From: Octopus vulgaris
Taxonomy: Eukaryota
Assembly (NCBI GenBank): GCA_951406725.2
Contig: OX597836.1
Location: 37,262,001 to 37,326,000, forward strand
Direction: 5' to 3'
DNA: 64,000 nt
The notes beneath the pieces were generated by a model, which saw only the letters and a list, made by a program, of their open reading frames with translations, ran no database searches and was not told the origin of the DNA. Positions 12,032-38,643 of this stretch are shown here, in pieces. The position numbers and the translations under genes are program-made. Position 1 is the first letter of the stretch. Each line of letters opens with the position of its first letter.

Positions 12032-12120
<89 letters not shown>

Positions 12121-12252
12121 AAAATAGTAAAGTGTGAAAAAACGACAGAAGGCTTAAATGTTAAAAGATATATATATTTGTGTCAAAATGTCTGGAGAAT
12201 ATTGGAAAAATTTTTTTCCTTTCCTTAAAATGACATAATTTTTAAATTTTTA

Positions 12253-12457: not shown

Positions 12458-12633
12458 TAAAAATTTAAAAATTATGTCATTTTAAGGAAAGGAAAAAAAA
12501 ATTTTTCCAATATTCTCCAGACATTTTGACACAAATATATATATCTTTTAACATTTAAGCCTTCTGTCGTTTTTTCACACTTTACTATTTTCTTATATAT
12601 TCACCCACGTGCTTTACCAAACAAACTTTCTTA

Positions 12634-13605: not shown

Positions 13606-13690
<85 letters not shown>

Positions 13691-13695
<5 letters not shown>

Positions 13696-14077
13696 TAGAG
13701 ACAACCACTATTATGCAAATCAAACAAAGATTAGCCAATACATAAAATAATTTATATAAATTTAGAAATTTAACAATTATAAATAACCACTACGATCGTT
13801 TCATGTCTTGTTTCAGCACATCTTTGAGACATTCTTCAGGTGGTTTCAAAACCTTCTTGGCGAGTTTTAAACTATGAACTCATAGTTATTTATAATTGTT
13901 AAATTTCTAAATTTATATAAATTATTTTATGTATTGGCTTAAGTCTTTCTTTGTTTGATTTGCATAATAGTGGTTTTGTCTCTAATTTAATATAATATAA
14001 TATTTTACTATAAAATTGGATTCAATCCTAAATCTGATTTTTCCTGTAAATTTGGATTTATTCCCTAATATTTATTA

Positions 14078-14085
<8 letters not shown>
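13691..14085. mobile_element. (TA)n-embedded element with ~100-bp inverted arms (Penelope-like)
   Basis: 13691-13787 pairs with 13885-13989 with a few indels; a hammerhead lies in the loop and (TA)n flanks both sides. Confidence 0.8.
13785..13845 (-). ncRNA. Canonical-core type I hammerhead ribozyme
   Basis: Minus strand reads aaccac-CTGAAGA-atgtct-(18 nt)-agacat-GAAA-cgatcg-TA-gtggtt. All stems are perfect and the site is GUA. Confidence 0.9.
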
Positions 14086-14117
<32 letters not shown>

Positions 14118-27775: not shown

Positions 27776-27820
<45 letters not shown>

Positions 27821-27826
<6 letters not shown>

Positions 27827-28063
27827 TGAGGGAATATTAATCCTAACTTACAGGGAAAAATTCAATTTAGAAATACTAAATCAAATTTCACACAATATAA
27901 TATATATATATATAAATATTAGAAAAAACACCTTTTATAAATACAAAATGAACAATTAAATTACACCATCTAGAAAATTAGATATGATAGAAATATTAAT
28001 ATTAAAATAACAATATAATACCGATGAGTAAGTAAATTGCGAAAAAGGTGGGGTTTTTTCTAA
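27821..28063. mobile_element. Second copy of the 11757-12010 repeat, with a short inverted terminus
   Basis: Shared sequence; attagaaaaaacacctttt (27918) pairs imperfectly with aaaaaggtggggttttttctaat (28042-28063). Confidence 0.6.
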
Positions 28064-38510: not shown

Positions 38511-38555
38511 GGACCACTGATGAGGTCACAGAAGTATGACGAAAGAACTCTGGCC
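38511..38555 (+). ncRNA. Canonical-core type I hammerhead ribozyme
   Basis: ggacca-CTGATGA-g-gtca-cagaagta-tgac-GAAA-gaac-TC-tggcc: stem I of 5 bp with one bulge, stem II of 4 bp. Confidence 0.75.
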
Positions 38556-38643
38556 GAAATAAGATTAAGATTAATGTAAAAAATAAATAACGCTGAAGCA
38601 AATTAACACCAAACTGGCAAAATGACCATTCCTAAATACAACA

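What the first reader, a model, noticed from the sequence alone, without database searches (positions are those of the whole stretch)
13691..13989. Textbook hammerhead in the loop of a TA-embedded inverted repeat
Seen: the best-formed ribozyme in the window (6-bp stem I, 6-bp stem II, CGATCG stem III, GUA site, intact core), on the minus strand at 13785-13845. The inverted arm begins at the distal end of stem I, within a few bases of the predicted cleavage site (~13791). Inference: the inversion breakpoint may be tied to the cleaved RNA end.
Basis: partly seen in the sequence, partly recalled or inferred. Interest (0 to 1): 0.7.

Follow-up and report, generated by a model that had tools for sequence, protein, structure and literature searches.

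The report
Penelope retroelement copies stopping at ribozyme
This is one of about 6,000 short, mostly head-to-head copies of a known kind of jumping gene; across its relatives the copied ends pile up at the predicted cut site of its self-cutting RNA, which likely means the ribozyme cuts or blocks the RNA during copying, although this particular copy turns at the RNA's start.

Summary
The hammerhead (minus strand, 13845-13785, predicted cut 13791/13790) and the inverted repeat are real. It is a short copy of the pLTR (terminal repeat) of a Hydra-clade Penelope-like retrotransposon: 5,968 exact tail matches genome-wide, and sister copies with intact 838-852 aa RT/GIY-YIG ORFs. Inverted arm, tail, hammerhead, intron and (TA)n target are all described for this group. 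The breakpoint test is positive at family level: of 110 arms ending between +45 and the ribozyme interior, 63 end at -3..+12 of the cut (nulls 16-19%) and 11 end further in, while 107 of 217 arms read through. A second sample is weaker (rate ratio 2.9). Spliced arms stop at a second wall, the transcription start, often with an extra G; the ribozyme wall shows no such G. In this copy the symmetry centre is the transcription start, and one arm carries the uncut ribozyme, so cleavage does not cause the inversion. Cleavage versus polymerase stalling is unresolved. The scan noted similar ends in other genomes, with mixed verdicts.

The parts
13608..13692 (.). Left (TA)n target microsatellite
   Evidence: 99 of 103 short ends and 118 of 120 tails in the family abut TA runs
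13693..13880 (-). Short-end arm: copy of the spliced pLTR RNA from the inferred transcription start (13880) through the intact ribozyme to the fixed short end (13693)
13853..13880 (-). 28-nt exon 1, joined at 13853/13852 to the ribozyme exon; the GT..AG intron (about 1-1.4 kb) present in long copies is precisely absent
13785..13845 (-). Type I hammerhead, palindromic 2-bp stem III, predicted cut 13791/13790
   Evidence: core and stems kept while loop II varies 13-68 nt in 107 distinct family variants
13881..13884 (.). Junction: one non-genomic base (G on the RNA strand, likely cap-templated or fold-back) plus 3 nt mirroring exon 1; joins the right arm through a 3-nt microhomology
   Evidence: against L034
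13885..13989 (+). Long arm, mirrored part: starts at +3 of the cut, lacks the ribozyme
13990..14082 (+). ~90-nt tail found on one arm only; in full-length copies it runs on to the ORF start about 80 nt later
14083..14115 (.). Right (TA)n target microsatellite

Best explanation
This is a short head-to-head copy of the pLTR of a Hydra-clade Penelope-like retrotransposon, likely made when the element's protein nicked a (TA)n run and reverse-transcribed the sense RNA from two fixed internal start points, and the family's arm ends pile up at the ribozyme, likely because some template RNAs were already self-cut. Shown: family, copy number, ORF link, fixed outer ends, intron loss, the wall at the transcription start, the excess of ends at -3..+12. 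Inferred: each cDNA runs toward the RNA 5' end (cap, retained intron, or cut end), is trimmed by 0-12 nt, and the two ends are joined by microhomology or short templated filler. Both arms usually come from one RNA species. In this copy the left arm came from uncut spliced RNA, and the right arm's +3 end fits either a cut template or a trimmed join.
For: Family: 284 exact ribozyme matches and 5,968 exact tail matches, controls 0. ORF link: 5 of 20 fetched RT loci (L365-L367, L369, L374, with L368 and L371 similar) read acceptor-ribozyme-short end-tail-ATG-ORF; unit length about 6.2-6.8 kb. The window's right arm matches L150 at 195 of 198 nt, and L150 continues upstream into endonuclease-coding DNA. 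RNA intermediate: 61 spliced arms, none more than 29 nt beyond the donor; a non-genomic G precedes +1 in 15 of 25 distinct arms, or 10 of 20 without fold-back joints. Wall: 63 of 110 ends at -3..+12; 27.0 per 1000 nt at risk, against 5.4 downstream and 2.0 inside; null share 16-19%. It holds for long arms only, without fold-back joints, after collapsing duplicates, and in non-inverted copies. The best change-point is -2/-3. No G precedes any of 11 ends at 0..-2, arguing against a second capped start. Arms are concordant for read-through (31/39/17, Fisher 1e-8) and for splice state (24 spliced, 8 intron, 2 other donor, 0 mixed among the 34 classifiable of 53 pairs).
Against: Only 2 ends lie exactly at 0; 53 of the 63 lie at +3..+12, and ends at -1/-2 (9) outnumber ends at 0 (2) more than chance A/TA matches would give. 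Pooled loci show 10 further ends at -4..-8, which a cut template cannot give. The chromosome-1 sample gives rate ratio 2.85 (p=0.004) with no end at -3..+3 and four at -4..-7; one subfamily group (19 arms) shows no excess. Bin limits were chosen after seeing the data. Half of the arms read through. For the anole element, cleavage was not needed in vitro and no RNA reads ended at the cut (PMC11167929). Cleavage itself was not tested here. No intact ORF with exactly the window's pLTR subfamily was among the 20 loci fetched.
Confidence: 0.55

Rival explanations
1. Same element and insertion route, but the wall is reverse transcriptase stalling at the folded, uncut ribozyme (stem I, then the 8-bp stem III duplex of a dimer whose 3' edge is at -2).
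For: Ends at -1/-2 exceed ends at 0, and a tail of ends runs to -8, inside the stem III palindrome. Change-point -2/-3. Self-duplex -12.0 kcal/mol. Low in vitro activity is reported for such ribozymes (PMC4209133).
Against: Half of the arms pass the whole ribozyme and few stop at stem II (3 ends at -4..-20 in the main set). Trimming at the ribozyme wall resembles trimming at the true RNA 5' end (14 of 50 versus 10 of 63 at the wall, p=0.16). By my reading, about 7 of the 10 ends at 0..-3 have their A or TA explainable by partner or filler bases.
Confidence: 0.27
2. The pile-up is a sequence effect: joints or later deletions of the palindrome centre avoid the GC-richer ribozyme and land in the first AT-rich stretch.
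For: Many joints use AT-rich microhomology or local palindromes (14 fold-back joints). Microhomology weighting alone depletes the ribozyme interior.
Against: The same nulls put most ends at +13..+45 (ratio 0.2-0.5 against 1.75 observed). The excess persists in copies with no inverted arm.
Confidence: 0.12
3. A second capped transcription start lies at the cut site, so the wall is an ordinary RNA 5' end.
For: The bases at the cut resemble the real start (pyrimidine-A-G-T), and notes on other genomes reached a cap reading.
Against: 0 of 11 ends at 0..-2 have the extra G seen in 15 of 25 arms at the real start.
Confidence: 0.04
4. The element is a MITE-type DNA transposon whose inverted repeats happen to hold a ribozyme.
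For: Inverted repeats, high copy number, TA flanks.
Against: Unequal outer ends, variable inner joints, precise intron loss and linkage to an RT ORF.
Confidence: 0.02

Closest known systems
Hydra clade of C-terminal EN+ Penelope-like elements (PMC8557442: passages, section 11, supplement parts 2 and 57)
   Same: RT plus C-terminal GIY-YIG; DKT, CxCx5C, CxxC and CxH motifs; the RT N-terminal region follows the Fig. S7 Hydra rows (compared by eye); type I hammerhead; (TA)n insertion; 5' inverted copy (noted there for Penelope-13_HM).
   Different: About 6.3 kb rather than under 3 kb, with a ~3.5-kb region after the ORF holding two splice donors; KWK in place of RWK; asparagine-rich insert; ~90-nt tail. 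Protein and ribozyme differ from the listed Hydra-1_Obim.
Inverted-pLTR-plus-tail insertions of Penelope elements (PMC3846280, passages; PMC8557442 Fig. 2 legend)
   Same: Head-to-head inverted 5'-truncated pLTR, tail on one end, palindromes and microhomology at the joint, N-rich ORF insert.
   Different: Tail there is 30-40 bp. That paper favoured self-priming on an antisense template; here spliced arms, a start-site wall and an extra G point to the sense RNA.
Poseidon PAc of the green anole (PMC11167929, parts 1-2 of 4 of the main text)
   Same: Two internal RT start sites defining the tail; both DNA strands cut and extended at AT-rich sites; hammerhead in the pLTR.
   Different: There the ORF starts in stem II, whereas here the ATG is about 270 nt downstream of the ribozyme. 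No trace of cleavage was found there in RNA reads; here genomic ends pile up at the site.
Metazoan minimal type I hammerheads and non-LTR retrozymes (PMC4209133 passages; PMC6765202 passages; bioRxiv 10.64898/2026.07.22.740005 part 1 of 5)
   Same: Type I fold, short palindromic stem III, dual ribozymes on opposite strands 100-700 bp apart.
   Different: Dispersed inverted copies, not tandem arrays; G10.1-C11.1 is absent in all 107 variants.

Membership tests
Type I hammerhead ribozyme | Core CUGANGA / GAAA / UH with three stems | tested here: met
Type I hammerhead ribozyme | Usual G10.1-C11.1 pair | tested here: not met
   A-U here; AC, AU, UA, UU, AA, AG across 107 variants. A common feature, not an obligatory one (my knowledge).
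Type I hammerhead ribozyme | Self-cleavage | not testable with these tools
   no assay; only contigs were available for RNA
EN+ Penelope-like element | Single ORF with RT and C-terminal GIY-YIG next to the pLTR | tested here: met
   L365: YRDD at 360, VVY..YIG at 711, in sister copies; this copy itself is non-coding. Pfam and PDB gave no significant hit, so the domain call rests on motifs.
EN+ Penelope-like element | pLTR with hammerhead and intron; copies both spliced and unspliced | tested here: met
   61 spliced, 24 intron-retaining, 6 other-donor arms of 107
EN+ Penelope-like element | Inverted 5' copy and one-sided tail | tested here: met
   101 of 129 copies have an inverted arm; tail ~90 nt
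Hydra clade | DKT, CxCx5C linker, CxxC and CxH around the conserved E and N | tested here: met
Hydra clade | RWK motif | tested here: inconclusive
   KWK at residue 44
Hydra clade | (TA)n insertion | tested here: met
Hydra clade | Placement in the RT phylogeny | not tested
   no tree built; eye comparison with supplement Fig. S7 only
Hydra clade | Generally under 3 kb (a tendency, not a defining trait) | tested here: not met
   6.2-6.8 kb repeat unit
Non-LTR retrozyme | Tandem units each with a ribozyme | tested here: not met
   single ribozyme in a dispersed inverted copy; no such array

The most novel reading that the evidence does not exclude
Thousands of tiny insertions form a fossil record of in vivo hammerhead cleavage in a Penelope-like element: the 5'-OH product is reverse-transcribed beside capped, spliced and unspliced sense RNA, both arms are primed from the two nicked target strands on one RNA species, and the ribozyme acts as a 5'-UTR switch that turns transcripts into short non-coding templates.
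Probability: 0.45. Interest if true: 0.7.

Novelty: new member of a known kind. Interest (0 to 1): 0.52.

Why it matters
PMC8557442 calls the function of Penelope hammerheads unclear, and PMC11167929 found cleavage dispensable in vitro and invisible in RNA reads. A genome-wide pile-up of copied ends at the predicted cut, with an internal control at the transcription start, makes the question testable with one family that has intact ORFs. The same data favour a sense RNA template over the antisense self-priming idea of PMC3846280. I found no paper reporting such a pile-up (searches; open-licence library only; PMC5785218 was not held). The locus itself is an ordinary dead copy.

Tried and rejected
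Rfam at gathering score: no hit. Pfam and PDB sequence searches of the ORF: nothing significant. Homologue search: 19 hits at 30-56% identity, 18 unnamed. RNA evidence: no RNA holder listed on record; four runs laid were contigs only and cannot show ends. An ORF starting at the AUG in stem II, as in PAc: stops after about 20 codons (read), and the real ATG lies about 270 nt downstream. Two independent RNAs paired through the stem III palindrome as the usual source of the two arms: disfavoured by 0 mixed splice states in 34 classifiable pairs, though the 17 mixed read-through copies, 7 with the short arm ending at -3..+12 (p=0.03), leave room for it. CGAUCG to CAAUUG (70 and 18 of 107 variants) keeps the palindrome but can arise by CpG decay, so I count it as weak covariation. 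Private-variant sharing between arms was uninformative (43 mismatches in 4,873 nt; 28 of 69 long arms have an identical other copy). The first mapping was redone because one subfamily lacked a ribozyme-bearing reference. Sequence look-up in earlier findings gave only unrelated hits.

Full report
Observation. The minus strand at 13845-13785 holds a type I hammerhead with 6-bp stem I, 6-bp stem II, palindromic CGAUCG stem III and a GUA site, cut predicted at 13791/13790. The descriptor hits once in the window and never in 300 shuffles. It is not a strong monomer: A-U at 10.1-11.1, 2-bp stem III, hammerhead fold 4 kcal/mol above the MFE, no Rfam hit. The arms 13693-13787 and 13885-13989 differ only by gaps. 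The right arm goes on for about 90 nt to the TA run at 14083, so the element is 13693-14082.

Family. The 2.8-Gb genome holds 284 exact matches to a ribozyme pattern and 5,968 to a 21-nt tail pattern, with reversed-pattern controls at 0. Copies are two pieces of one unit set head to head, with fixed outer ends (short end, tail end) in TA runs and variable inner joints. Across 107 distinct ribozyme variants the core, the stem I CCAC/GUGG pairing and the stem II UGUC/GACA pairing are mostly kept while loop II varies from 13 to 68 nt (the search pattern itself fixed the core).

Parent element. Long copies keep a GT..AG intron that is precisely missing here at 13853/13852. Upstream of it, several copies run into an endonuclease-coding end. 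An RT search returned 150 scored places of 5,762 candidates. Of 20 fetched, L365-L369, L371 and L374 read acceptor, ribozyme, short end, tail, then an ATG and an 822-852 aa ORF; where a second pLTR was seen it lies about 6.2-6.8 kb on. The protein has KWK, DKT, YRDD, CxCx5C, GIY-YIG-type, CxxC and CxH motifs, matching the Hydra clade text and alignment of PMC8557442, but it is not the listed Hydra-1_Obim. These intact copies carry a sister pLTR; the window's own type is tied to the ORF by truncated copies such as L150 (195 of 198 nt). The host is probably a cephalopod (inference from the one named homologue).

Breakpoint test. I sampled by an outer-end pattern blind to the ribozyme: 100 of 132 matches and 30 of 30, giving 129 loci and 231 arms; 14 short arms ending beyond +45 were dropped. 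Of 217 arms, 107 pass the whole ribozyme. Of the other 110, 36 end at +45..+13, 63 at +12..-3 and 11 further in. Simulated uniform or microhomology-weighted joints give 16-19% in that bin. The excess holds for one arm per copy, without fold-back joints, after collapsing 2 duplicate joints, and in copies without an inverted arm (6 of 7 truncated among 27). The best change-point is -2/-3. The bins were set after seeing the data. A second sample (95 tail matches in 91 chromosome-1 loci, 131 arms, 37 dropped as ending beyond +45) gave 15 ends in the bin, rate ratio 2.85, p=0.004 for 75 arms, none at -3..+3, and no excess in a 19-arm subfamily group.

Internal control. None of 61 spliced arms passes more than 29 nt beyond the donor, which defines a 28-nt exon 1 and a start at window 13880. 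A non-genomic G precedes that start in 15 of 25 distinct arms, as a cap would give (inference), and in 0 of 11 ends at 0..-2 of the cut. Splice state agrees between the arms in all 34 classifiable pairs of 53, and read-through is concordant, so both arms usually copy one RNA species.

This copy. The left arm is spliced, holds the uncut ribozyme and ends exactly at the start site. The centre is identical to that of the symmetric copy L034. The right arm joins at +3 by a 3-nt microhomology. So the symmetry centre is the RNA 5' end, and the +3 end is one more member of the ribozyme wall, not proof in itself.

Mechanism (inferred). Following the anole element (PMC11167929), the protein would cut both strands of a TA run and start cDNA at two internal sites about 90 nt apart. 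Each cDNA runs to the cap, into the intron, or to the ribozyme, is trimmed, and the two are joined. Cleavage is my preferred cause of the wall (0.55). Stalling at the folded dimer is the main rival (0.27): ends at -1/-2 outnumber ends at 0 by 9 to 2, and 10 more reach -4..-8 in pooled loci, part of which were sampled with bias.

Comparison. Inverted pLTR, tail, intron, ribozyme and TA targeting are known (PMC3846280, PMC8557442, PMC4209133, PMC6765202). I found no report of a pile-up of copy ends at the cut; subscription papers, PMC5785218 and bioRxiv supplements were not visible. Unchecked notes of this scan describe similar ends in other genomes with mixed verdicts.

Verdict: new member of a known kind, with a well-powered but not decisive clue to an open question; interest 0.52.

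Noticed in passing
window 38511-38560 (+): A second hammerhead-like motif (CUGAUGA core, 4-bp stem II with G-C next to the core, short stem I), unrelated to this family by sequence.
   Followed up: no
window 13288 and 122 (minus strand cores): Degenerate CUGAAGA...GAAAC motifs, possibly pLTR remnants of other Penelope-like families.
   Followed up: no
window 12112-12217 and 12495-12600: Perfect 106-nt inverted repeat, 277 nt apart, between TA runs; possibly another inverted retroelement end.
   Followed up: no
window 27808-27938 (-): Diverged (73%) fragment of this family's short end and tail.
   Followed up: partly
L150, L156-L161, L302, L329, L379: A second, upstream splice donor about 200 nt after the ORF stop is spliced straight to the ribozyme exon in some copies, so two pLTR introns share one acceptor.
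   Followed up: partly
L365-L369, L374: Several near-identical full-length copies with intact 838-852 aa ORFs suggest recent activity of a sister subfamily.
   Followed up: partly
L018, L249, L254, L321: Fragments of a different Penelope-like ORF with a CxxC-type linker lie next to several copies, consistent with shared TA targets.
   Followed up: no
L035, L075: Unrelated 170-210 nt sequence captured between two complete arms.
   Followed up: no
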